From NCBI GenBank assembly GCA_964640655.1, contig CAZXFT010000006.1:73686-137685 (forward strand): a DNA stretch of 64,000 bases. Direction: 5' to 3'. A program made the position numbers and the translations under genes. How positions within the stretch are numbered: the stretch's first letter is position 1; every line of letters starts with the position of its first letter. Source of the stretch: an uncultured Bifidobacteriaceae bacterium. Its GTDB lineage: Bacteria > Bacteroidota > Bacteroidia > Chitinophagales > UBA10324. The notes below the pieces were generated by a model. The model saw nothing but the letters and a program-made list of their open reading frames with translations, made no database searches and was not told the DNA's origin. Positions 11,729-37,861 of the stretch are shown here, piece by piece.

Positions 11729-12622
11729 TCAGTTCTGACTCATCTTTAGGTCTATTGAACTGACTATTTCTGATAGTTCATTGAAAGTGACAATATTATT
11801 TGAAGACTTGATATTATTCTTTGAAATCTGGTAACCGGACAAACAACACTGTACATTATTCAACTTGGTTTGAAGTATTTCGATATGTGCATATATACTC
11901 TCGTCATCCGGTGTTGCAGTGAATACACTGTAAAGTTGATCTGGTTTATAATATTCAACTATACTTAGTAAGTCGTTGAGAGGAACCGATTGTCCTAAGT
12001 ATATAACCTGATATCCTCTTGACTTAAGGGAATAGTACAAAAACAATAAAGGTATTTCGTGCAGCTCATTTTCTGGTAAATAAAGGACTGCTTTAAGAGA
12101 TGTACCTGAATTAGAAGGCATCAATCCGTCTATGGCGACAATCATCTTCTGACGGATAAGATTTGAAATAAAATGTTCCTGAGCAGGTGTGATGGTACCA
12201 ACTTGCCACATAATACCTATACGACGAAGAAATGGTAGAACTATTTGTATCATAGCCTTTTCAAAGCCGTGATGAAGGATGGCGTTAGAAAAAGTTTTAT
12301 CAAAGCGCGACTCATTCAACTCGTTCATAGAGAGTATGAGAGCATCAATCAGTGTATCTCTGCCGGTATTTTGATTGAGTAATTCTGAAACTGCATGTTC
12401 TATTTCAGATTGAGACATTTCAGCGATATTAGAGATTTTGTACCCCGACTTATTGAGTAATGATACATTCAGTATCAACCGCAATTCATTATCACTGTAT
12501 TCGCGAATATTCCCTTCGCTGCGCTTTGGGTTTATCAACCCATAGCGCTGCTCCCATATACGAAGCGTGTGGGCTTTAATGCCGGAGAGATGCTCTAAAT
12601 CTTTGATACTGTACGTACTCAT
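11729..12622 (-). CDS. MerR-family transcriptional regulator with B12-binding domain (CarH/LitR-like photoreceptor candidate)
   Basis: MerR HTH YSIKDLEHLSGIKAHTLRIWEQRYGL. W-x9-E-H signature WQVGTITPAQEH. Rossmann-like C-terminus with an E-x-H loop (ENELHEIP). Confidence 0.8.
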   Translation of the reverse strand: MSTYSIKDLEHLSGIKAHTLRIWEQRYGLINPKRSEGNIREYSDNELRLILNVSLLNKSGYKISNIAEMSQSEIEHAVSELLNQNTGRDTLIDALILSMNELNESRFDKTFSNAILHHGFEKAMIQIVLPFLRRIGIMWQVGTITPAQEHFISNLIRQKMIVAIDGLMPSNSGTSLKAVLYLPENELHEIPLLFLYYSLKSRGYQVIYLGQSVPLNDLLSIVEYYKPDQLYSVFTATPDDESIYAHIEILQTKLNNVQCCLSGYQISKNNIKSSNNIVTFNELSEIVSSIDLKMSQN

Positions 12623-12687
12623 ACAAGTGGCTCTAACACCAAAGAAAGCATAATGTTTAAAATATACTAAAATATTTTTGAACGCAT

Positions 12688-13326
12688 CTAAATCAAATTG
12701 GCCAGTATAAAGAAGGCCAACTGTATTACAAATATATATGGTGCGAAATCGTTACGCAGCTTAGATTTTGATGCTAAAAGAGATAGGACAAAAATGTAGG
12801 ACAAGCCAAACCATACTGCATAATTTTTTAGCGGCACTTTATTATCAGCCCATGACCACATTCCTGTTCTGATAGCAACCGGTTCAATTAAAACATCAAG
12901 TGCTACCAGCATTATAGCAGCAAGCAAGGCATTACCAAAGGCTCCAAATTTTAAATTCTTGACCAGCGAAGTTGTGCTATAAACCAATATCAACCAGTTA
13001 ATACCAATGACTAATGGAGTGTTAAATGCTTTCAAACCCAGGGCTCTGCCATATTTGTATTCACCAAAGATTTGTCCGGTGTTAACACCAACAGCCTCAA
13101 CAACAAATGAGACAACATAGATACCGGACAGGAATGCAATTATTCGAAAGTTCCAATGCTTTTGATAGAAAAGCATAGTGCCAAACACGATTAATAAATG
13201 AAAAGGAGCCAGTCTCTGAAATATGTCTTGCAGACCGCTGTATCTCAAACAAATCAAACCAACAACATGCAGAACCGATAAAAAAATTAAGGGTTTGGTA
13301 AAGTTGGCAGATTTCTTATCGCTCAT
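12688..13326 (-). CDS. polytopic membrane protein, DUF422-like / carotenoid-biosynthesis-protein-like
   Basis: 212 aa with about 7 hydrophobic helices. Its position directly upstream of the crt regulator matches the family usually annotated 'carotenoid biosynthesis protein'. The assignment rests on architecture and context only. Confidence 0.5.
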   Translation of the reverse strand: MSDKKSANFTKPLIFLSVLHVVGLICLRYSGLQDIFQRLAPFHLLIVFGTMLFYQKHWNFRIIAFLSGIYVVSFVVEAVGVNTGQIFGEYKYGRALGLKAFNTPLVIGINWLILVYSTTSLVKNLKFGAFGNALLAAIMLVALDVLIEPVAIRTGMWSWADNKVPLKNYAVWFGLSYIFVLSLLASKSKLRNDFAPYIFVIQLAFFILANLI

Positions 13327-14682: not shown

Positions 14683-14895
14683 TTAATAATCATCATCGTC
14701 GTCATCGTTATAGCCTTTTATGGCATCTAACTTAAAGTCGTTGTCGAAGTTAAATTCTTCAAAGTCTTCGTCAATTAATGAATCATCATCGTCGTCTCCT
14801 TTCTTGCGAGATGATTTTTTAGGACTTGCTTTTTGCGGAGCAGCCTTTTTGGCCGCTTTTGCGGCGGCTTTCTTGCCGGGTTTATTGGTTTTCAT
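14683..14895 (-). CDS. small block-polyampholyte protein (histone-H1-like basic head, poly-Asp aromatic tail)
   Basis: 70-aa ORF with an ATG start. Residues 1-33 carry 13 Lys/Arg (KKAAAKAAKKAAPQKASPKK). Residues 34-70 carry 19 Asp/Glu with interspersed Phe/Tyr and end in DDDDDDY. Confidence 0.55.
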   Translation of the reverse strand: MKTNKPGKKAAAKAAKKAAPQKASPKKSSRKKGDDDDDSLIDEDFEEFNFDNDFKLDAIKGYNDDDDDDY

Positions 14896-16297: not shown

Positions 16298-16645
16298 CTA
16301 ATGATGATGACCCTGCTTCTGGCAACAAGCAGGTAATTTATGATACGCGTCATGATCAGCTTTAATATTATCAGCATCATAACCCAATTTTGAAATTGTC
16401 TGGCTGATGGCATCGGCACTTGACTTAGTATTGTTAAAAACAACTGTTATTTCGGCTGTTTTTACATCCAAGACAGCAGACTTAACACCTGCTATAGCCA
16501 GCACAGCATCTTCAATACGTTTCTTACACATGTCGCATTGTGCAGAAGTTATAATGATGATGGTTTCTTTTTTCTTTTGGGCAAATGCATGCTCTCCTAT
16601 TGTAAAAATGACAAGAAGAGCGAGTAATAGATTTTTTGTTTTCAT
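16298..16645 (-). CDS. secreted heavy-metal-associated (HMA) domain protein
   Basis: Signal peptide, then an HMA fold with the CxxC metal site (SAQCDMCKKRIE). The C-terminal tail is PACCQKQGHHH. Confidence 0.8.
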   Translation of the reverse strand: MKTKNLLLALLVIFTIGEHAFAQKKKETIIIITSAQCDMCKKRIEDAVLAIAGVKSAVLDVKTAEITVVFNNTKSSADAISQTISKLGYDADNIKADHDAYHKLPACCQKQGHHH

Positions 16646-16668
16646 GATTTTTTATTGATTGGTTAAAG

Positions 16669-18879
16669 TTATTTAAAAGAGTATCGAATTCCGGTGTAAA
16701 CTATTCTGCCCATTATTGGACCCCAGATCATGGCTGCGTCAAAGCCGTTATCGAATGGAGCATAAGGATTGATGATGGGGTTATTTTGTGTAAAGGCATT
16801 CAGATTTTCGCCACCCACATACCATTCCAGGTTTTTCAACTGATATGTTACCTGCGAAAGTACCCTGAAGTATGATGGTGAGTATTGCCTGTAATTCTCT
16901 CCGGTATAATTCAAATTAGATGCTATGCGTTGCTCTCCTACCCACTGCACTGTGGCATCAATCTTCAGCTTTTTCTTAAACAAAGAATACGCAGCATTGA
17001 ACATTCCGCGCCATTGAGGTGTGAATGGACGTTGTAACAATTCATTATGATAGGTAACCTGAACCTGATTCCATTTTATTGCGCTAAGTAAATTCAGATT
17101 CTTAACGGGCTCGTATTGAACCTGAGCCTGTATACTGTTGGCATAAGAAACTCCTGATAAATTATAGAACCACAGTTGAGAATATGATTTATCAATATCC
17201 ACTACAATCTGATTCAGGAACTGCGTCCTGTATGCATCAACCGAAACCTGTAATTCACGTTCATTGACATCAAAGTTCTGAGTGTAGTTGATGCCGTAGT
17301 TGAGTGCATATTCCGGTTGCAAAATTCCATCAATAATTATCTCGCGTGAGGACACCAGATAATTCAGATTTTCCTGAATAATGTTGGCAACACGCCAGCC
17401 GTATCCTGCTGATGCACGAATAAAAGCTTCCTTGCCGAGTTTGTATCTCAGATGTATACGTGGTGCGGCATATATTCTTTGATTGTTATTGTAATAGTCA
17501 GCACGCAAGCCGGCAATGATTGAAAATTTATCGCCATTATCGTATGTCCATTCTGCAAATAATCCGGGAATAACATCGGTTCGTGAAAGATTGATGCTGT
17601 CAATGTTTTGTGTGTAACTGCTATACATCAATCCACCACCGAAACGATAGATAATTTTCTCATTGCGTGGTAACAGCTGAAAGTTTGAATTCAGATATAG
17701 TGTTTGTTCATTGGCATTATAAATTCTATTACCAATTTGAGTTTGCTGTTCATGATTTGCCAGGTTAATCTGCAAGCCTAACTCATTATTCTCATTGTGG
17801 AATAACTCCATGCATGTTTTGGCAAAAACTTCTTCACGATGGTATCGTGTACGAAACAGATACTTCTGAAAAACAGCACCGTCCGGCAAATGATGTACGT
17901 GCTTCAAAGTATTAAATGACTGTGCATCATCATAGTGAAATTTGAAACCAATATTCGTTTCCTTACCATGATTGCTGATGTGCTGCCAGCGATGAATTCC
18001 GGTGAATACATTGTAAACCGGATTATCCAGAAAACTATCTTTGTTAAAATCCATTTGTAATTGTGCCGAACTGCCATGCAGCATGGTCAGTGCTTTCCAT
18101 TTTTTAAAATTATTCCTGAAATAAGTATTTAGTTCTAAGCGCTGCTGTGAATTGGCATAAAGATTCAACATAAACTTATCGGCATCGTATGGTTTGATAA
18201 GTTCCACATCAATCTGACCGGTAATGCCTTCGTAGCTGTTTGCTACCGAGCCGGGACCTTTGCGTATGTATATGTTGTGAATAAATGGACCGGGCATTGC
18301 AGTTAATCCAGTAATAATATTCAATCCTCTTAAATCAGGAATCATATCCGTAAGCATTTGAACATAAATACCTGAAAGACCAAGCATTTGAATTTGTCTT
18401 TGACCGGTAACCGCATCAGCACTGCTGCCGTCAATTGTTGGATTACTTTCAAAACTCTCTGCCAGATTGCAACAGGCGTTTTTCTTTAAACCTTCAGAAG
18501 TAATCACTTCAGTCTTAAGAGTTTGAATGCTTGATATGTAAGACTCGTCGAGCTTACCTGTAATAATGACACCACTGAGTTGTGTGATATCCTGTAAGGT
18601 GATGTTGAGGTTATCGGGTACCAGAAATATGGTATCAGTTTTATATCCCGGATATGAACAGATAACGATGTCGTATTCCTCCGGCAGTTGAATAGAATAA
18701 AATCCGGTACTGTCGCTGTAAGTAAAAAATTTATTGTCTGCGGTATGGATTGATGCAAGATACAGTTTGTTGAGTTGCTGACCACTACTGCCTTGCACTA
18801 CACCGGAGTATGTTGTTTGAGCATAGCTAAATGCGATGCTCCAAGTAATTATTGTGGTAAAAATTGAAATGAATTTCAT
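16669..18879 (-). CDS. TonB-dependent receptor with N-terminal carboxypeptidase-regulatory-like domain
   Basis: Signal peptide, a CarboxypepD_reg-like beta-sandwich (YSGVVQG..GFYSIQLP) and a plug. The 736-aa barrel ends in GIRYSFK. The plug carries a vicinal Cys pair (KKNACCNLAESF). Confidence 0.85.
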   Translation of the reverse strand: MKFISIFTTIITWSIAFSYAQTTYSGVVQGSSGQQLNKLYLASIHTADNKFFTYSDSTGFYSIQLPEEYDIVICSYPGYKTDTIFLVPDNLNITLQDITQLSGVIITGKLDESYISSIQTLKTEVITSEGLKKNACCNLAESFESNPTIDGSSADAVTGQRQIQMLGLSGIYVQMLTDMIPDLRGLNIITGLTAMPGPFIHNIYIRKGPGSVANSYEGITGQIDVELIKPYDADKFMLNLYANSQQRLELNTYFRNNFKKWKALTMLHGSSAQLQMDFNKDSFLDNPVYNVFTGIHRWQHISNHGKETNIGFKFHYDDAQSFNTLKHVHHLPDGAVFQKYLFRTRYHREEVFAKTCMELFHNENNELGLQINLANHEQQTQIGNRIYNANEQTLYLNSNFQLLPRNEKIIYRFGGGLMYSSYTQNIDSINLSRTDVIPGLFAEWTYDNGDKFSIIAGLRADYYNNNQRIYAAPRIHLRYKLGKEAFIRASAGYGWRVANIIQENLNYLVSSREIIIDGILQPEYALNYGINYTQNFDVNERELQVSVDAYRTQFLNQIVVDIDKSYSQLWFYNLSGVSYANSIQAQVQYEPVKNLNLLSAIKWNQVQVTYHNELLQRPFTPQWRGMFNAAYSLFKKKLKIDATVQWVGEQRIASNLNYTGENYRQYSPSYFRVLSQVTYQLKNLEWYVGGENLNAFTQNNPIINPYAPFDNGFDAAMIWGPIMGRIVYTGIRYSFK

Positions 18880-18939
18880 CAGAAATGATTTTTAGTAATG
18901 AATGAAATGAAAGCGGAATAATTATCACGCATCAATTCA

Positions 18940-19293
18940 TCACAACCTAAACACCTGAATGTATATGAGATAGTTTTCTCCATGTAGAACAGGCGGAGAA
19001 GTGTCACAAGCAAAACAAAAATCAACACATTCAACGGATTGAACCGTTTGGTAAAACAAATCGGTTGAGAGGATTATAAACTCTGATAAAAACTGTACAA
19101 AATGATGAGTCAGCTGAAATACTGTATCCAGCTTTGAATAATACATGTGTGTTTCACATTTCTTTTTGGAATCGCAGCAGGCATGTGTTTCTTCAATGAC
19201 TGAAATGCCGCAACAACAATGATACAATGCTATACCATTAGTGGCAAGGGTAAAAACAATTAAGGTTAATATGACCAATGCTTTGCGCAACAC
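18940..19293 (-). CDS. small Cys/His-rich membrane-anchored protein
   Basis: 117 aa with a GTG start and an N-terminal TM. Motifs are LYHCCCG, THACCDSKKKCETH, ECVDFCFAC and SPP. From memory it resembles the small family named HYC_CC_PP in NCBI annotations; this is unverified. Confidence 0.5.
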   Translation of the reverse strand: MLRKALVILTLIVFTLATNGIALYHCCCGISVIEETHACCDSKKKCETHMYYSKLDTVFQLTHHFVQFLSEFIILSTDLFYQTVQSVECVDFCFACDTSPPVLHGENYLIYIQVFRL

Positions 19294-19331
19294 AATACAA
19301 AAGTATCACATCTATCCGGAATTGTATTTAA

Positions 19332-20201
19332 TTAGTGTTTCAACACCTCGTAGTCTTTATACAACGTCAGCAGTTTTGTATAAATAACTGCTTGGCGAAA
19401 GTCTTTTCTTTCCTGAGCAATAGACTTTGCACGTTTAAAGCCTCCGGTGTAATACCTGAAATAAATGGGAAATACGGTTGTAAATCCTTCGAGTACACCT
19501 ACTGTAACTATGCTGCGGGCTGTGAAAAAAAAGAATAGAGAAGTTATGGTGAGCGAGTTCAAACCATTTTTAATATCACCTGCATAAAATTGACCCGTAC
19601 CCGGAACAATCATAGATAGTATCATCGCCGTGTTCGGGTTCAATTTATTAACGTGTTGGAGTTCACGCCATATCTTATTATAACGCTCATACAACACCGG
19701 AGAACTTACAGAATCAAAAAGTGATGAGAAAAACCGCTCTGCCTGTTCAAAATCGTTGAGCCCATAATAAATACAGGCCTGATATAATTGAGTTTGTCTT
19801 TTTTCCTTTTCAGTATCATTATTCACAGCATATATATCCTGCAATGCCAGCATGTAATCTTTACTTATAATTAAGTTTTCTGCACGCTTCATCAGCAGTG
19901 CGTCTTTAAGACTGTCGTTATCAGTAGTGAAAAATGCCATATCATAATAGGCATTTGCTTTTCGCAAGCTATCCAAAGCGTTAAAGCAATCTCCAATTCT
20001 GATTAAGCAAGCAGTATTTACATCTCCGGGACTAAATAGTAAAACTCGCTGATAATGAATCACCGCACGCTGAAACTGTCTCTGAGCGAAAAGATGATCA
20101 GCATAATCCAGCGTTTGCCGAACATCCTGCGCCGCAGCAGTGAGGCTAATAAGAACCGAGAGAGATATAAATCTGCCTGCTCTTTTTAATAAGTTCATCA
20201 T
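19332..20201 (-). CDS. TPR-like repeat protein with C-terminal membrane domain (paralog B)
   Basis: The start is set at ATG 20201 (MMNLLKRAGRFISLSVLISLTAAAQD, a signal peptide). A helical-repeat middle is followed by IVPGTGQFYAGDIKNG and then TM helices. It overlaps the upstream paralog by about 56 nt. Confidence 0.6.
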   Translation of the reverse strand: MMNLLKRAGRFISLSVLISLTAAAQDVRQTLDYADHLFAQRQFQRAVIHYQRVLLFSPGDVNTACLIRIGDCFNALDSLRKANAYYDMAFFTTDNDSLKDALLMKRAENLIISKDYMLALQDIYAVNNDTEKEKRQTQLYQACIYYGLNDFEQAERFFSSLFDSVSSPVLYERYNKIWRELQHVNKLNPNTAMILSMIVPGTGQFYAGDIKNGLNSLTITSLFFFFTARSIVTVGVLEGFTTVFPIYFRYYTGGFKRAKSIAQERKDFRQAVIYTKLLTLYKDYEVLKH

Positions 20202-20973
20202 TTTTTGTTCGGTTAAATTTCTGTGCTGATTTGGCAGAGCCATAAATATTTCCAAGGTAAAATCCGGTGGAGAGACCGCCGAAAATCCAAAACTTTGCAC
20301 TTTCAAAACCATTACGATTATAGCCTCTATATGCCTGAAATGAAGTGGCAGAAAGCATAATCAAACTAATAGCTCCGTCTTTCCAGTTTCCTGTATAAAC
20401 TTTTCCGCTGCCGGGTATAATTGCAGACATTGCACCGGCAACAAACCCTGAACGATGCTTGACTTGCCTGCTTTGTTCCACTAACTTATCGAATGGTTCA
20501 AACAACAGTGTATTCATTGAATGTGAATCTGAATAAATCCGTTGAACTTCTTTCCAGTCAGATTTCTGAAAGGCATATTGTAAATTCATCAATCGTTTTA
20601 AGGTATCGTTAGAGATTTGTGAAGCAAACAAACCGAGTGTTTCACTCTTCTTCCCAACCAATAGTTTTGAATGCAACATAGCGGCGGTTTGGTTGGAGAA
20701 TTTGTCTTGATCAAACAAACGATTGGAAGCGGCTATGCCTTCATCATATTTAGAAGCACGCAGACAGGAACTCAGTAAAAAGTACTTGGCTGTATCATTT
20801 TGTTTGTTAAGGAATATGGCTCGTTCAAATTCATCTATTGCGGCTACATATTGACCGGAGAAATACAAATAACGGGCAAACTGCATAGTATGATTTTCAT
20901 CGAACAAATCAGTTTGTTGTGCGTGAGAAAATAAAGAGATGAAAGTAAGTATGAATAACGCGCCGTATTTCAT
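20146..20973 (-). CDS. TPR-like repeat protein with C-terminal membrane domain (paralog A)
   Basis: Signal peptide (..LFSHAQQ), a helical-repeat middle, then IIPGSGKVYTGNWKDG followed by TM helices. Its ATGA overlaps the stop of the YidD-like gene. Confidence 0.6.
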   Translation of the reverse strand: MKYGALFILTFISLFSHAQQTDLFDENHTMQFARYLYFSGQYVAAIDEFERAIFLNKQNDTAKYFLLSSCLRASKYDEGIAASNRLFDQDKFSNQTAAMLHSKLLVGKKSETLGLFASQISNDTLKRLMNLQYAFQKSDWKEVQRIYSDSHSMNTLLFEPFDKLVEQSRQVKHRSGFVAGAMSAIIPGSGKVYTGNWKDGAISLIMLSATSFQAYRGYNRNGFESAKFWIFGGLSTGFYLGNIYGSAKSAQKFNRTKNDELIKKSRQIYISLGSY

Positions 20974-21347
20974 TCCACAGGGTCAATAAATAATTGTCGT
21001 TTATAATCGTAAGGATATTTATCAGGATTTAATCCATTGCAACGTGTTAATCTGTCGAAGGTCATCAGCGAACCTAAAACGACACCTTTCTTATTGATGG
21101 CCTGCAAGGCATACTCTGAGCAGGATGGCGTAAAGGTGCAACTGGAGCCATCTTGCGAAGAGATAACACTTTTGTAAAGAATAAATAATGTAGTTAATGT
21201 AACTGTAACTTCATTAGTAGCGTTCCTTAAACTAAAATGATGATGATGCTTGTGCGTGTCAGCAGCATGCATAAGTCGATCAACATCCTGAGCCTGAGAA
21301 AAGCAGGAAAGACTAATAAGCGCTGGTGTTATAATTATAAATTTCAT
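20970..21347 (-). CDS. YidD-family (membrane protein insertion efficiency factor-like) paralog with signal peptide and His tract
   Basis: YidD core LYKSVISSQDGSSCTFTPSCSEYALQAINKKGVVLGSLMTFDRLTRCN. It is preceded by a signal peptide and DTHKHHHHF. Confidence 0.75.
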   Translation of the reverse strand: MKFIIITPALISLSCFSQAQDVDRLMHAADTHKHHHHFSLRNATNEVTVTLTTLFILYKSVISSQDGSSCTFTPSCSEYALQAINKKGVVLGSLMTFDRLTRCNGLNPDKYPYDYKRQLFIDPVE

Positions 21348-35518: not shown

Positions 35519-37861
35519 CTAAAATTTAAAGTTCCATGTAATGGAAGGAAGAATTGGAAAAATAGTTACTTGCTTAGCCTGAATGTTGATGACAGGATCT
35601 TGGAGAAATACACCGGTGATTTCGTCGTAAATGAAAAAAGGATTTAAACGATTGTAAACATTATATACACTGAATGTCCAGCTATCATCAACGTGTTTTC
35701 TTTTCTTGCCATCGTATGTAGCACTAATGTCCATTCGGTGGTATGAGGCCAGTCGGAATGAATTAATAGCACCATACTCAGTAACTACAGATCCTTCAAA
35801 GAAATATTTGGCCATAGGTAAAGTGTAAGCAATGCCTGTGTTGTATACGAAAACAGCACCAAAGGTCCATCGCTCATTGATGCGGTAGTTTCCAACGATA
35901 GACAACACATGTCTTCTATCGAAACGATATGGAAATTTTTGACCACCATTCAGGTCGGGGAATTTGCGGTTTGTGTATGACAGTGTATAACTGACCCAGC
36001 CTGTGAAGTCGCCGGCTTTTTTATTTAGAAACAACTCAAGTCCTTTTGAATCACCGGTGCCGAACACAAAACTTTCTTCCAATTTTTCATTTGCCGATGG
36101 TGTATAGCCCTCTTTATATTCAATCTGGTTAAGCAACTTTTTATAATAAACCTCCACGGATGTTTCCCATTTGTTGTTGAAGAAATTTCGGAAGTAACCT
36201 AATGCATATTGGTATCCGACCTGAGGCTTAACATTAGCAGAACTTGGCACCCATATATCAGTAGGAAGCGTGGTGCCATTGTTGGCTACCAAATGTATGT
36301 ATTGGTTGTTAATGTTGAATGATGCCTTTACGCTGGATACTTTGTCAATGCTATAACGCACTAGGATTCTAGGTTCGAGGCGATGATAAAATTTCACCAG
36401 TTCGCCACTTTTCCACATCAAAGAATCGGTAGGTATTCCACGGAAGTCATAGATGTACTTTGTGTAAGGACCTACCTGACCAAACATGGAATATCGAAGA
36501 CCATAATTAATTTCAAGTTTTTCAGTGACAGTGTATTTATCTAATGCATATATTGCAAATTCGTGAGCAAACTGTGGGCCTATATTCTTAGGGTTAAACT
36601 CTGTATCTCCGCTTTGTCCACTAAACGTGCTTGGAGTGAAGCGATGAAAAATGTAGTTGGCTCCGAAATGAATTTCGTGTAAAGCATTCGGATAAAAATC
36701 AAAATCTGTCTTGATATTGTAATCACGAATTCCGGAGTAAAGCGTTATGGCAAAGTTGTTCTGGTCGGCAGTTACTTTAAAGTTGTATGAATTGTAAATA
36801 GCTGTCGTGTTCATAAACAGTTTGCTGTTGAACAGGTGATTCCATCTTACTGTGGTGGTTGCATTTCCCCAAGGAATGCTGATATTAAATTCATCATTTT
36901 TGAAACTGAAAATGTCACGGCCAAAGTACCCGCTAATGAAAAGACGGTCTTTATCAGAGAAAGTATAGTTAGCTTTTGCATTGAAGTCGTAGAAGTAATA
37001 ACCAGTACCCGAAAATTCCTGGTTCTTGATAAATGGCTTTGCAAGAATATCAATATATGTACGTCTGCCCGAAAGCATAAAAGATGACTTGTCTTTTACC
37101 AATGGTCCTTCCACAGTTGCACGGGATGCGATCAAACCAATACCGCCGGATGTATGATACGTTTTGTTGTTTCCTTCCTTCATTTGAATGTCTAACACAG
37201 AAGAAACACGACCGCCGTAACTTGCAGGAATACCTCCCTTATATATCGTTGCATTGTGAATGGCATCCGGATTAAACACAGAAAAGAATCCGAACAAATG
37301 TGAACTATTATACACTGTTGCTTCGTCGAGCAGAATTAAATTCTGATCGGGGCCACCACCCCGCACATAAAAACCCGCACTGGCCTCATTGCCACTTTGC
37401 ACTCCTGGTAACAGTTGAATGGTTTTAAGTATATCCACCTCACCAAAAATGGCTGGCAATGTCTTGATTTTTTCCATAGTCAACTCCACCCTACCCATAT
37501 CAGTGTTACGAATGTTGGCGTCTTCTTTATCGGCGGTGATGGTAACACCTTTTATCTGCTTGGCAGCAGTTTTCATCTCAATGTTGAAACGAAGATTTTC
37601 GTTGGCTGTAATTACAGTATCAATTCTATTATATCCCAGATAGGTAACCTGAAGGTGCAACGCGCCTTTCTCTGCACTAAGTGAATAGAAACCATACTCG
37701 TTTGTATATACACCTGTACCGGAAGGCAAGAGCACCACACCGGCGCCAATGAGGCTTTCGCCGGAGGCAGCATCTTTAATATATCCGCTAACAGTAACTT
37801 TTTGTGCAAAGGATGAAAAAGTGACACAGAGAAATGATAGTAGTATTAGCAGTCGGTACAT
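35519..37861 (-). CDS. TonB-dependent receptor with carboxypeptidase-regulatory-like domain
   Basis: Signal peptide, then VSGYIKDAASGESLIGAGV (CarboxypepD_reg). The plug contains DILKTIQLLPGVQSGNE. The 780-aa barrel ends in SITWNFKF. Confidence 0.85.
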   Translation of the reverse strand: MYRLLILLSFLCVTFSSFAQKVTVSGYIKDAASGESLIGAGVVLLPSGTGVYTNEYGFYSLSAEKGALHLQVTYLGYNRIDTVITANENLRFNIEMKTAAKQIKGVTITADKEDANIRNTDMGRVELTMEKIKTLPAIFGEVDILKTIQLLPGVQSGNEASAGFYVRGGGPDQNLILLDEATVYNSSHLFGFFSVFNPDAIHNATIYKGGIPASYGGRVSSVLDIQMKEGNNKTYHTSGGIGLIASRATVEGPLVKDKSSFMLSGRRTYIDILAKPFIKNQEFSGTGYYFYDFNAKANYTFSDKDRLFISGYFGRDIFSFKNDEFNISIPWGNATTTVRWNHLFNSKLFMNTTAIYNSYNFKVTADQNNFAITLYSGIRDYNIKTDFDFYPNALHEIHFGANYIFHRFTPSTFSGQSGDTEFNPKNIGPQFAHEFAIYALDKYTVTEKLEINYGLRYSMFGQVGPYTKYIYDFRGIPTDSLMWKSGELVKFYHRLEPRILVRYSIDKVSSVKASFNINNQYIHLVANNGTTLPTDIWVPSSANVKPQVGYQYALGYFRNFFNNKWETSVEVYYKKLLNQIEYKEGYTPSANEKLEESFVFGTGDSKGLELFLNKKAGDFTGWVSYTLSYTNRKFPDLNGGQKFPYRFDRRHVLSIVGNYRINERWTFGAVFVYNTGIAYTLPMAKYFFEGSVVTEYGAINSFRLASYHRMDISATYDGKKRKHVDDSWTFSVYNVYNRLNPFFIYDEITGVFLQDPVINIQAKQVTIFPILPSITWNFKF

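What the first reader, a model, noticed from the sequence alone, without database searches (positions are those of the whole stretch)
16298..19293. Cys-rich small protein + TonB-dependent receptor + secreted HMA protein, all carrying an A-C-C vicinal-cysteine motif: candidate thiophilic-metal handling module
SEEN, in three consecutive co-directional genes with gaps of 60 and 23 nt:
- The 117-aa membrane-anchored protein has LYHCCCG, THACCDSKKKCETH and ECVDFCFAC.
- The TBDR has a vicinal pair in its plug (KKNACCNLAESF), which is unusual for plug domains.
- The signal-peptide HMA protein has the canonical CxxC site (AQCDMC) plus the tail PACCQKQGHHH.
- The tripeptide A-C-C therefore recurs in all three products.

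ESTABLISHED:
- HMA CxxC sites bind Cu(I)/Zn/Cd/Hg.
- TBDRs import scarce metals and metallophores.

INFERENCE:
- This may be a relay in which a soft metal, or a metal-thiolate ligand, passes from the receptor plug to a periplasmic HMA chaperone and on to a membrane Cys-rich acceptor.
- The direction (uptake or sequestration) is unknown.
- From memory the small protein resembles the uncharacterised family that NCBI calls HYC_CC_PP. I know of no experimental description of the trio.
Basis: partly seen in the sequence, partly recalled or inferred. Interest (0 to 1): 0.68.

Follow-up and report, generated by a model that had tools for sequence, protein, structure and literature searches.

The report
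Conserved cysteine-pair metal uptake trio
Three adjacent genes (a small membrane protein, an outer-membrane TonB-dependent receptor and a secreted metal-binding HMA protein), each carrying paired cysteines, form a widely conserved but unstudied Bacteroidota gene module that most likely brings a sulfur-loving metal such as copper or zinc into the cell envelope.

Summary
Three co-directional minus-strand genes sit at 16298-19293 with gaps of 60 and 23 nt, and every quoted motif is present.

- **Receptor.** All 120 listed homologues, down to 34% identity, keep the plug motif ACCNL[AS]ESF. So do all 83 receptors in a neighbourhood census. Four neighbouring paralogous receptors lack it.
- **Synteny.** The small gene lies just upstream in 75 of 83 loci. 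An HMA domain with CxxC and a Y..LP.CC tail is present in 74 of 83. It lies downstream, in between, or fused to the receptor's periplasmic N-terminus.
- **Small protein.** It misses the NCBIfam HYC_CC_PP model, but profile-profile comparison places it in that family (97.9%, E 5e-13). Pfam calls the family DUF8199.
- **Not conserved.** The Ala of "A-C-C" varies in two of the three proteins, and the third Cys cluster of the small protein is lineage-specific.
- **Other context.** One HYC_CC_PP gene precedes a CusA/CzcA efflux pump.
- **Neighbours.** Sporadic neighbours are metal-homeostasis genes for Cu and Zn/Cd.
- **Literature.** I found no description of the trio.

My best reading is TonB-powered uptake of a thiophilic metal, passed by thiolate exchange to periplasmic partners. 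The metal and the relay order are untested.

The parts
18940..19293 (-). Small Cys-rich membrane-anchored protein (117 aa, GTG start). It is a divergent member of the HYC_CC_PP (NF047658) / DUF8199 (PF26622) family.
   Evidence: The ORF is listed. The NCBIfam and Pfam models give no hit. hhalign of its subgroup against typical HYC_CC_PP gives 97.9%, E 5e-13, over the full length. A family member lies just upstream of the receptor in 75 of 83 loci. Only the N-terminal helix 2-25 is modelled with confidence.
19210..19221 (-). H25-C26-C27-C28, at the periplasmic end of the transmembrane helix. It takes the place of the family's H-Y-C motif.
   Evidence: C26, C27 and C28 are invariant among the four closest relatives. 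The family column Y26-C27 is 92-100% conserved.
19174..19185 (-). H37-A38-C39-C40, the vicinal pair of the small protein.
   Evidence: H37, C39 and C40 are invariant in the subgroup, while A38 varies as A/S/D. In hhalign this pair aligns with the family's C-x-C-G site, and the single C46 aligns with the family's CC.
18991..18996 (-). P100-P101, the 'PP' motif about 16 residues before the C-terminal FRL.
   Evidence: PP is 98% conserved in the family, and the C-terminus is [FY]R[IV] or FLI in most members.
16669..18879 (-). TonB-dependent receptor (736 aa). Layout: signal peptide, CarboxypepD_reg-like N-terminal domain (residues 22-97), Ton-box-like LSGVIITG (about 101-108), plug, and a beta-barrel modelled with about 22 strands.
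   Evidence: Searches give the ORF and weak Pfam hits. The AlphaFold2 model has pLDDT 79 with a confident barrel. Foldseek matches ZnuD, BtuB, Cir and OprC at probability 1.0. The search found 1560 homologues.
18451..18477 (-). Plug motif A135-C136-C137-N-L-A-E-S-F143. The vicinal cysteines lie at 18469-18474.
   Evidence: The pair is invariant in 120 of 120 homologues and in every census receptor. It aligns to the two residues just before the conserved NLxDAL plug helix of 9gbc_A.
16298..16645 (-). Secreted (periplasmic) HMA protein of 115 aa, with a signal peptide, a CxxC site and a Cys-Cys/His tail.
   Evidence: PF00403 scores 36.4 bits. CopZ and MerP-type NCBIfam hits fall below their cutoffs. 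The same protein type occurs in 74 of 83 loci.
16526..16537 (-). C37-D-M-C40, the canonical HMA metal-binding loop.
   Evidence: CxxC is present in 99% of the family's HMA modules.
16301..16345 (-). Tail Y101-H-K-L-P-A-C107-C108-QKQGHHH115. The vicinal pair lies at 16322-16327.
   Evidence: [YFH]..[LIVM]..CC occurs in 100% of 78 strong HMA modules. The form with Pro occurs in 81%, and a His within 14 residues after CC in 73%. The fused versions carry the same tail.
19298..19305 (-). TACTTTTG, a match to the Bacteroidota -7 promoter consensus TAnnTTTG, 4 nt upstream of the GTG start. This is a weak, consensus-only feature.
   Evidence: It was read directly from the sequence. TTTG-type words are the most enriched 7- and 8-mers upstream of the small gene in 72 loci. 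The consensus itself is from my own knowledge.

Best explanation
This is a three-part, envelope-spanning system for handling a thiophilic metal. It is conserved across Bacteroidota and Ignavibacteriota.

**Proposed mechanism (inferred).** The outer-membrane TonB-dependent receptor takes up the metal. My favoured candidate is Cu(I), with Zn(II) second. An invariant vicinal dithiol lies in the N-terminal part of the receptor's plug, about 28 residues after the Ton box. This dithiol holds the metal or passes it on. TonB-driven remodelling of that part of the plug exposes it to the periplasm. There the metal moves by thiolate ligand exchange to a periplasmic HMA chaperone. The chaperone has a CxxC site and a flexible Cys-Cys(-His) tail. 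In many species it is physically fused to the receptor's periplasmic N-terminus.

The small HYC_CC_PP protein is anchored in the inner membrane by one helix. It exposes His/Cys motifs to the periplasm and acts as a membrane-tethered metal-binding partner: an acceptor, a buffer or a gatekeeper. No inner-membrane transporter is conserved in the locus. The likely destination is therefore the periplasm and its metalloproteins.

**Shown here.**
- Conservation of the genes, their synteny, the fusions and the motifs.
- The TonB-dependent receptor fold.
- HMA membership.
- Family membership of the small protein.

**Inferred, not shown.**
- That the proteins bind metal.
- The direction of transport.
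- The identity of the metal.
- The order of transfer.
- The periplasm-facing position of the plug CC.
For: **Conservation of the receptor motif.** CC is invariant in the plug of 120 of 120 homologues down to 34% identity. It is present in all 83 census receptors. It is absent from four paralogous receptors.

**Synteny.** Architectures among the 77 loci where the first motif screen found a receptor ORF:

| Order | Loci |
|---|---|
| S-T-H | 25 |
| S-H-T | 15 |
| S-[H fused to T] | 15 |
| S-T | 8 |
| other | 14 |

(S = small protein, T = receptor, H = HMA protein.) Searching from the small protein side, 7 of 8 loci carry the same CC receptor.

**Fusions.**
- HMA plus the CC tail is fused N-terminal to the receptor's N-terminal domain and Ton box. 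One protein carries two tandem copies (L040).
- Two proteins carry the module at the C-terminus instead.
- Both ends of a TonB-dependent receptor are periplasmic.

**HMA module.** CxxC is present in 99% of HMA modules and the CC tail in 100%.

**Neighbours.** Among 120 same-strand neighbours:
- extra HMA: 9
- HMA-MauE: 7
- HMBD: 6
- AraC regulators: 4 (the one I read, L031, has an N-terminal CxxC)
- thioredoxin/redoxin: 4
- multicopper oxidase: 3
- CDF: 3
- ArsR: 3

A CPC-type P-type ATPase sits in L031 (sequence read), and a similar HMA-bearing 743-aa protein sits in L074.

**Small protein.** It has one transmembrane segment and nearly invariant Y-C, CC and PP motifs. The family has 5704 cluster representatives.

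**Precedents.**
- A plug cysteine is an essential Cu ligand in OprC (PMC8610252).
- Thiol relays through CxxC and vicinal Cys pairs are established for MerP/MerT/MerA (my own knowledge).
Against: - There is no experimental or structural evidence of metal binding for any of the three proteins.
- The AlphaFold2 model is unreliable exactly at the plug CC (pLDDT 32-56 for residues 99-171). Whether CC faces the periplasm or the outside is therefore unknown.
- The small protein could not be modelled (pLDDT 54).
- One family member precedes a CusA/CzcA efflux pump, which does not fit a dedicated import acceptor.
- Neighbour genes split between Cu and Zn/Cd systems.
- Strict anaerobes with little known need for copper, such as Parabacteroides distasonis, carry the trio. 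Their HMA tail lacks CC.
- Eight census loci lack an adjacent HMA.
- I found no shared operator or riboswitch.
Confidence: 0.55

Rival explanations
1. The hardware is the same but the purpose is protection rather than nutrition. This would be a mer-like or cop-like system. It would draw a toxic soft metal (Hg, Cd, Ag or excess Cu) onto thiols for controlled sequestration or hand-over to efflux and oxidation systems. The small protein would serve both uptake-side and efflux-side machines.
For: - The HMA protein's best non-CopZ hits are MerP and MerTP, including the signal peptide region.
- Vicinal Cys pairs are the hallmark of MerT, MerF, MerA and ArsD (my own knowledge).
- Some loci sit with CopA-type ATPases, multicopper oxidase, HMBD proteins, CDF and ArsR.
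- HYC_CC_PP occurs directly upstream of CusA/CzcA.
- A Haliscomenobacter plasmid copy lies near CusA.
Against: - In the window and in most loci the trio sits among housekeeping genes with no reductase, efflux pump or regulator: purA, pabB, ftsK, trxB, smpB.
- It is spread across the phylum in at least 600 species genomes. That pattern fits a core nutrient function better than an accessory resistance function.
- MerP, MerT and CopZ model scores are all far below their cutoffs.
Confidence: 0.15
2. The cysteines are not simple ion ligands. Either the receptor imports a metal-thiolate complex, a metallophore or a sulfur compound, or the vicinal pair acts as a redox switch. In the second case a strained vicinal disulfide would gate the plug, and the HMA protein and small protein would act as its thiol-disulfide partners.
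For: - Thioredoxin/TlpA-like and HMA-MauE genes recur next to the trio. This suggests that thiol redox state needs maintaining in the periplasm.
- The receptor has no other invariant Cys or Met ligand. Only partly conserved His residues occur, at positions 268, 376 and 476.
Against: - No biosynthetic genes for a ligand are conserved in the 83 loci.
- The HMA CxxC fold is a dedicated metal-ion site (established knowledge).
- A redox-maintenance role for the thioredoxin-like neighbours is equally compatible with the main explanation.
Confidence: 0.15
3. The cysteine pairs are structural (disulfides or packing). The gene adjacency would reflect co-expression of unrelated envelope proteins, with no metal relay between them.
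For: There is no direct metal-binding evidence. The plug and small-protein models are of low confidence.
Against: - Repeated independent fusions of the HMA-CC module to the receptor.
- Gene order varies between loci (S-T-H and S-H-T) while the gene content is retained.
- CC is invariant at 34% overall identity.
- Metal-related genes are enriched among the neighbours.
Confidence: 0.04

Closest known systems
OprC / NosA TonB-dependent copper importer (Pseudomonas)
   Same: [quoted passage not shown]
- A plug cysteine is essential for that binding (PMC8610252).
- The overall fold matches at Foldseek probability 1.0.
   Different: - OprC uses a CxxxM (plug) plus HxM (barrel) site. Cys143 lies about 68 residues after the Ton box (residues 68-75), near the extracellular side.
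- Here the only invariant soft ligands are a vicinal CC about 28 residues after the Ton-box-like segment.
- No CxxxM-HxM motif is present.
- Identity is 13%.
- OprC has no HMA or HYC_CC_PP partner.
MerP-MerT/MerF mercury uptake relay, with the NmerA and C-terminal CC of MerA
   Same: - A periplasmic, signal-peptide-bearing HMA protein with CxxC.
- A small membrane protein with vicinal cysteines at the periplasmic end of its first helix.
- Metal moved by thiol ligand exchange (established knowledge).
- MerP and MerTP appear among the HMA protein's hits.
   Different: - No outer-membrane receptor exists in mer systems, and no MerA or MerR exists here.
- MerP scores 31.6 bits against a cutoff of 92.55.
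- The small protein has one transmembrane segment and no cytoplasmic Cys pair, so it cannot carry a metal across the inner membrane by the MerT/MerF route.
- No sequence similarity to MerT or MerF was detected.
HYC_CC_PP family (NCBIfam NF047658) = DUF8199 (Pfam PF26622)
   Same: - N-terminal transmembrane helix.
- An aromatic-Cys motif at the end of that helix.
- A CC motif and a PP motif.
- A C-terminal [FY]R[ILV].
- hhalign 97.9%, E 5e-13, over the full length.
- The same position upstream of the CC receptor.
   Different: - The window protein and its closest relative fail the NF047658 model. Typical members score 29-57 bits against a cutoff of 28.
- Its cysteine pattern is shifted: HCCC / HxCC / single C, against HYC / CxCG / CC.
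- The family itself has no described function.
ZnuD (Neisseria) zinc TonB-dependent transporter
   Same: It is the best structural match, at E 5e-23. It is an outer-membrane importer of a borderline or soft metal ion.
   Different: Identity is 14%. The match reflects the generic TonB-dependent receptor fold: BtuB, Cir, FepA and OprC score almost the same. As far as I know, ZnuD binds Zn through His/Asp-rich loops rather than vicinal Cys.
CrtA (BfrG) copper TonB-dependent transporter family of Bordetella
   Same: It is a recently defined TonB-dependent transporter subfamily dedicated to copper supply for periplasm-facing oxidases. No inner-membrane partner is needed (PMC12914433).
   Different: It imports chelated copper and relies on an invariant His. 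The paper mentions neither cysteines nor HMA. It comes from Proteobacteria.
Bacteroidota TonB-linked receptors with an N-terminal CarboxypepD_reg-like domain (SusC-like; 9gbc_A)
   Same: The N-terminal domain plus plug give the best sequence match to a solved structure (9gbc_A, E 6e-18). PF13715 also hits.
   Different: 9gbc_A has S-T where this family has C-C. No SusD-like partner is present; the partners here are the HMA and HYC_CC_PP proteins.

Membership tests
TonB-dependent receptor (TBDR/TBDT) | 22-stranded beta-barrel closed by an N-terminal plug domain | tested here: met
   The AlphaFold2 model has a confident barrel (pLDDT 85-93). Foldseek gives probability 1.0 to many solved TonB-dependent transporters. 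Homologues carry PF00593 and PF07715. The window protein's own Plug hit is below threshold (E 0.03, 15.3 against 23.9 bits), and the plug is poorly modelled.
TonB-dependent receptor (TBDR/TBDT) | Ton box preceding the plug | tested here: inconclusive
   A Ton-box-like LSGVIITG lies at about residues 101-108, between the N-terminal domain and the plug. The family profile has L-x-E-V-E-V at the same place. I judged this by resemblance to consensus only.
HMA (PF00403) metallochaperone domain | Pfam model above gathering score, with a CxxC loop | tested here: met
   PF00403 gives 36.4 bits against a cutoff of 24.8, E 6.7e-9. The loop is C37-D-M-C40.
CopZ / MerP equivalogs (NCBIfam) | Score above the curated cutoff of the CopZ or MerP models | tested here: not met
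   CopZ scores 43.4 against 95 and 42.3 against 91. MerP scores 31.6 against 92.55. The protein has the HMA fold but is not one of these named chaperones. It also has a signal peptide and a CC/His tail that CopZ lacks.
HYC_CC_PP (NF047658) / DUF8199 (PF26622) | Match to the family HMM above its cutoff | tested here: not met
   There is no hit even at E<=10. The closest relative, L003, also fails. Typical members from the same genomic position pass at 29-57 bits.
HYC_CC_PP (NF047658) / DUF8199 (PF26622) | Homology over the full length and shared architecture (transmembrane helix, aromatic-Cys, CC, PP, C-terminal [FY]R[ILV]) | tested here: met
   hhalign gives 97.9%, E 5e-13, over 114 aligned columns. 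An iterated HMM scores it at 1.4e-17. The motifs are present. The genomic position is the same in 75 of 83 loci.
OprC-type copper TonB-dependent transporter | CxxxM (plug) plus HxM (barrel) copper site | tested here: not met
   The only columns with C, H or M at 50% or more are C136, C137, M165, H268, H376, H(409), H476 and M(726). There is no CxxxM or HxM pattern. OprC residues are from PMC8610252.
MerT / MerF mercury transporters | Two or three transmembrane helices with a periplasm-side Cys pair and a cytoplasm-side Cys pair | tested here: not met
   150 of 157 family members, and the window protein, have one hydrophobic segment. The cytoplasmic N-terminus is 3-4 residues long and has no Cys. 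No NCBIfam or Pfam hit was found.

The most novel reading that the evidence does not exclude
This would be a previously unrecognised, phylum-wide route of metal acquisition. The plug of a TonB-dependent receptor itself carries the metal on an invariant vicinal dithiol. When TonB unfolds that segment, the plug delivers the metal straight to an HMA chaperone. The chaperone is either tethered, as a fusion to the receptor, or free. A membrane-anchored HYC_CC_PP protein would complete an all-thiolate bucket brigade. If so, this is the first TonB-dependent receptor with a built-in periplasmic metallochaperone. It would also be the main copper (or zinc) entry route of Bacteroidota, gut species included.
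Probability: 0.3. Interest if true: 0.8.

Novelty: new variant of a known kind. Interest (0 to 1): 0.62.

Why it matters
How Gram-negative bacteria bring copper, zinc and other soft metals across the outer membrane is known for only a few proteobacterial receptors: OprC/NosA, ZnuD and CrtA. For Bacteroidota it is essentially unknown. Bacteroidota are dominant in gut, soil, freshwater and marine habitats.

This module has several features that make it worth pursuing:
- It is present in at least 600 species genomes.
- Its receptor signature is simple and invariant (ACCNLxESF).
- It has two dedicated partners, and natural fusions tie the HMA protein to the receptor.
- It gives a function hypothesis to a family of about 5,700 sequence clusters that is currently labelled DUF8199 / HYC_CC_PP.
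- It predicts a transfer chemistry (vicinal dithiol to CxxC/CC) known until now mainly from mercury resistance.

It can be tested directly in cultured carriers: Parabacteroides distasonis, Chitinophaga, Dyadobacter, Segetibacter and Arcicella.

Tried and rejected
**Searches and models that gave nothing.**
- Direct family assignment of the small protein: NCBIfam and Pfam gave no hit even at E<=10. The word-indexed homologue search also gave no hit. Homology was recovered only through neighbourhood-derived profiles.
- AlphaFold2 of the receptor: the barrel is good, but the plug around CC has pLDDT below 50. The orientation of CC could not be read.
- AlphaFold2 of the small protein: pLDDT 54, with only the transmembrane helix reliable. 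I ran no fold search on it.
- Foldseek against the PDB: it gives only the generic receptor fold. The ZnuD top hit says nothing about substrate.
- Rfam scan of the whole window: no riboswitch or other RNA.
- k-mer search for a shared operator upstream of the small gene in 72 loci: only promoter-like TTTG words emerged.
I replaced it with 8 single look-ups.
- Pfam at E<=10 on 18 typical HYC_CC_PP members, to look for a link to other small Cys-rich metal-system proteins (I had DUF2946 and CzcI in mind from memory): nothing.
- Nine literature searches: no paper on the trio, HYC_CC_PP or DUF8199.

**Readings I rejected.**
- The A-C-C tripeptide as a meaningful motif.
- OprC-type site equivalence.
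- Membership in MerP, MerT or CopZ.
- The upstream TPR/DUF5683/YidD genes as part of the module. They are conserved only in the two closest relatives.

Full report
**1. Observation.** The window carries three co-directional minus-strand ORFs:
- S, the small protein: 19293..18940, 117 aa, GTG start.
- T, the receptor: 18879..16669, 736 aa.
- H, the HMA protein: 16645..16298, 115 aa.

The gaps are 60 and 23 nt. H is a bona fide HMA domain (PF00403, 36.4 bits) behind a signal peptide.

T scores poorly against Pfam. CarbopepD_reg_2 gives 2e-4 and Plug gives 0.03, and no NCBIfam model hits. Its AlphaFold2 model nevertheless has a confident beta-barrel and N-terminal domain. The model matches solved TonB-dependent transporters at probability 1.0.

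S hits no family model, even at E<=10.

**2. Is it more than chance?** In this window 8 of 63 long ORFs contain a CC dipeptide, so three in a row is already unlikely. Conservation settles the question.
- The homologue search for T returned 1560 proteins. All 120 listed, down to 34% identity, carry ACCNL[AS]ESF at the same plug position.
- In the 80 loci kept, plus L001, L002 and the window, every family receptor has the CC.
- Four unrelated receptors lack it: a second one in the window (35519-37861) and those in L053, L086 and L088.

**3. The trio is the unit.** I built profiles iteratively from the ORFs flanking T.
- An S-like protein lies immediately upstream, on the same strand, in 75 of 83 loci.
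- An HMA module with CxxC and the tail [YFH]..[LIVM]..CC is present in 74 of 83 loci.

Gene content is kept while gene order varies:

| Order | Loci |
|---|---|
| S-T-H (as in the window) | 25 |
| S-H-T | 15 |
| S-[H fused to T] | 15 |
| S-T | 8 |
| [H fused to T] | 4 |
| rarer forms | remainder |

One rarer form is a receptor with two tandem HMA-CC modules (L040). In the fusions, H sits N-terminal to the CarboxypepD_reg-like domain and the Ton-box-like segment. Two database proteins, P0089 and P0103, carry it at the C-terminus instead. Both ends of a TonB-dependent receptor are periplasmic (established knowledge), so H works in the periplasm.

Searching from S gives the same picture. Of eight family members looked up independently of T, seven sit next to a CC receptor, with H between or fused. 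One sits directly upstream of a CusA/CzcA heavy-metal efflux pump.

**4. What S is.**
- Close relatives (L001, L002, L003) conserve the transmembrane helix, H-CCC, H-x-CC, one further Cys, PP and the C-terminal [FWL]R[LI]. They do not conserve the third cluster ECVDFCFAC.
- Typical upstream proteins from other loci pass the NCBIfam HYC_CC_PP model at 29-57 bits against a cutoff of 28. Database members carry Pfam PF26622, DUF8199.
- Profile-profile comparison of the window subgroup with typical members gives 97.9% probability, E 5e-13, over the full length.

The window protein is a divergent member with a shifted cysteine pattern.

A full HMMER scan found 5704 cluster representatives at E<=1e-3. 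They are almost all stand-alone proteins of about 125-135 aa with one hydrophobic segment. Nearly invariant positions are Y13 and G19 in the helix, Y26-C27, C55-C56, P111-P112 and the terminal [FY]R[IV]. AlphaFold2 gave no usable fold beyond the helix.

**5. Where CC sits in T.** The profile alignment to the closest solved structure, 9gbc_A, puts C136-C137 on the two residues just before the conserved NLxDAL plug helix. That is about 28 residues after the Ton-box-like LSGVIITG.

In OprC the copper-binding Cys143 lies about 68 residues after the Ton box (residues 68-75) and pairs with Met147, His323 and Met325 (PMC8610252). This family has neither that spacing nor a CxxxM-HxM pattern. Apart from CC, only partly conserved His residues are candidates, at positions 268, 376 and 476.

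From my own knowledge of TonB-dependent receptor mechanics, the N-terminal third of the plug is the part that TonB pulls out. A dithiol there could be carried toward the periplasm. The model is unreliable in exactly this region (pLDDT 32-56 for residues 99-171), so this remains inference.

**6. Which metal, and which direction?** Only the trio is conserved. Among 120 same-strand close neighbours, the recurrent families are metal-related:
- extra HMA: 9
- HMA-MauE fusions: 7
- HMBD: 6
- AraC regulators: 4 (the L031 example has an N-terminal CxxC)
- thioredoxin/redoxin: 4
- multicopper oxidase: 3
- CDF: 3
- ArsR: 3

A CPC-type P-type ATPase lies in the Dyadobacter locus L031, and a similar HMA-bearing 743-aa protein lies in L074. 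This confirms a link to soft or borderline metals but splits between Cu and Zn/Cd.

Points favouring copper:
- No inner-membrane importer is conserved in any locus. That fits a periplasmic destination, as for bacterial cuproenzymes.
- The thiolate/His ligand set.
- The Cu-type neighbours.

Points favouring zinc or another metal:
- The trio occurs in strict anaerobes such as Parabacteroides distasonis. There the H tail is GCP plus a His-rich stretch rather than CC.
- Most H tails end in His.

In the window the trio sits among housekeeping genes, with purA downstream. I found no riboswitch and no shared operator. A TAnnTTTG-type promoter element lies 4 nt before the S start.

**7. Comparison with known systems.** The system works like a TonB-dependent metal importer (OprC/NosA, ZnuD, CrtA) joined to a MerP/MerT-style thiol relay. 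It is a member of none of those families; the membership table gives the failed tests. The component families are catalogued: HMA, TonB-dependent receptor, HYC_CC_PP/DUF8199. I found no description of the trio, of the invariant plug dithiol or of the HMA-receptor fusions in the searchable literature.

**8. Verdict.**
The functional module and its metal link are well supported by comparative evidence. The relay order, the metal and the direction are open. The A-C-C tripeptide and the third Cys cluster are not meaningful.
- Novelty: a new variant of a known kind, namely TonB-dependent metal acquisition.
- Interest: 0.62.
- Confidence in the proposed mechanism as a whole: 0.55.
- Confidence that this is a conserved metal-handling module: about 0.85-0.9.

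Noticed in passing
L084 5001-9197: An HYC_CC_PP/DUF8199 gene (34.4 bits to NF047658) lies directly upstream of a split CusA/CzcA heavy-metal efflux RND transporter and an OEP gene. The small-protein family therefore also accompanies efflux systems, not only the CC receptor.
   Followed up: partly
L088 7434-10079 (Haliscomenobacter hydrossis plasmid pHALHY01): An HMA-like protein here has the metal loop GVCCNGD, a vicinal CC in place of CxxC. It precedes a variant receptor with AACCDLAGCFET. A second receptor without CC and a CusA/CzcA gene follow.
   Followed up: partly
L087 7302-10592 (Parabacteroides distasonis, record labelled 'plasmid 17'): The trio is present in a cultured gut species (WP_005855442, WP_005855444, WP_005855446). 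Its HMA tail lacks CC and reads GCPVPP...EHTHAH. The 'plasmid' record carries ftsK, trxB, smpB and metH, so it looks like a chromosomal fragment.
   Followed up: partly
L081 8392-9435 (and two other Bacteroidales loci): A 347-aa secreted protein whose mature N-terminus begins QCCGGGSGS is encoded just downstream of the trio. It has no Pfam family.
   Followed up: no
L071 7304-8041; also L012, L042, L064, L066, L037: Proteins of about 245 aa with an N-terminal HMA (CxxC) fused to a MauE-type membrane domain recur next to the trio (7 of 120 neighbours). Thioredoxin/TlpA-like genes recur there too. Together they may form a periplasmic thiol-maintenance set.
   Followed up: partly
window 19332-21347 (-): Upstream on the same strand lie two TPR proteins with a DUF5683-like C-terminus. 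Their ORFs overlap by about 167 nt, so the start of the 19332-20312 gene is probably later than listed. A YidD-like protein (PF01809) with a signal-like N-terminus and an HKHHHH run also lies there. The block is conserved only in the two closest relatives (L001, L003).
   Followed up: partly
window 14683-14895 (-): A 70-aa protein with a Lys/Ala-rich N-terminal half and an Asp-rich C-terminal half lies between purA and a chorismate-binding (PabB-like) gene. An ORF of identical length occupies the same position in L001 and L003.
   Followed up: no
window 11729-13326 (-): A 297-aa ORF that reads to me like a MerR-type regulator with a B12-binding-like C-terminal part (by eye; no family scan run) sits next to a membrane protein. 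The counterpart of that membrane protein in L001 hits PF04240 (Caroten_synth). This may be a light-regulated carotenoid module.
   Followed up: no
window 35519-37861 (-): A second TonB-dependent receptor-like ORF in the window matches the family profile only weakly (47.7 bits) and contains no CC. I used it as an internal negative control.
   Followed up: partly
L040 4218-7073: A 951-aa receptor carries two tandem HMA modules at its N-terminus. Each module has its own CxxC and Y..IHGCCKYRDE tail.
   Followed up: no
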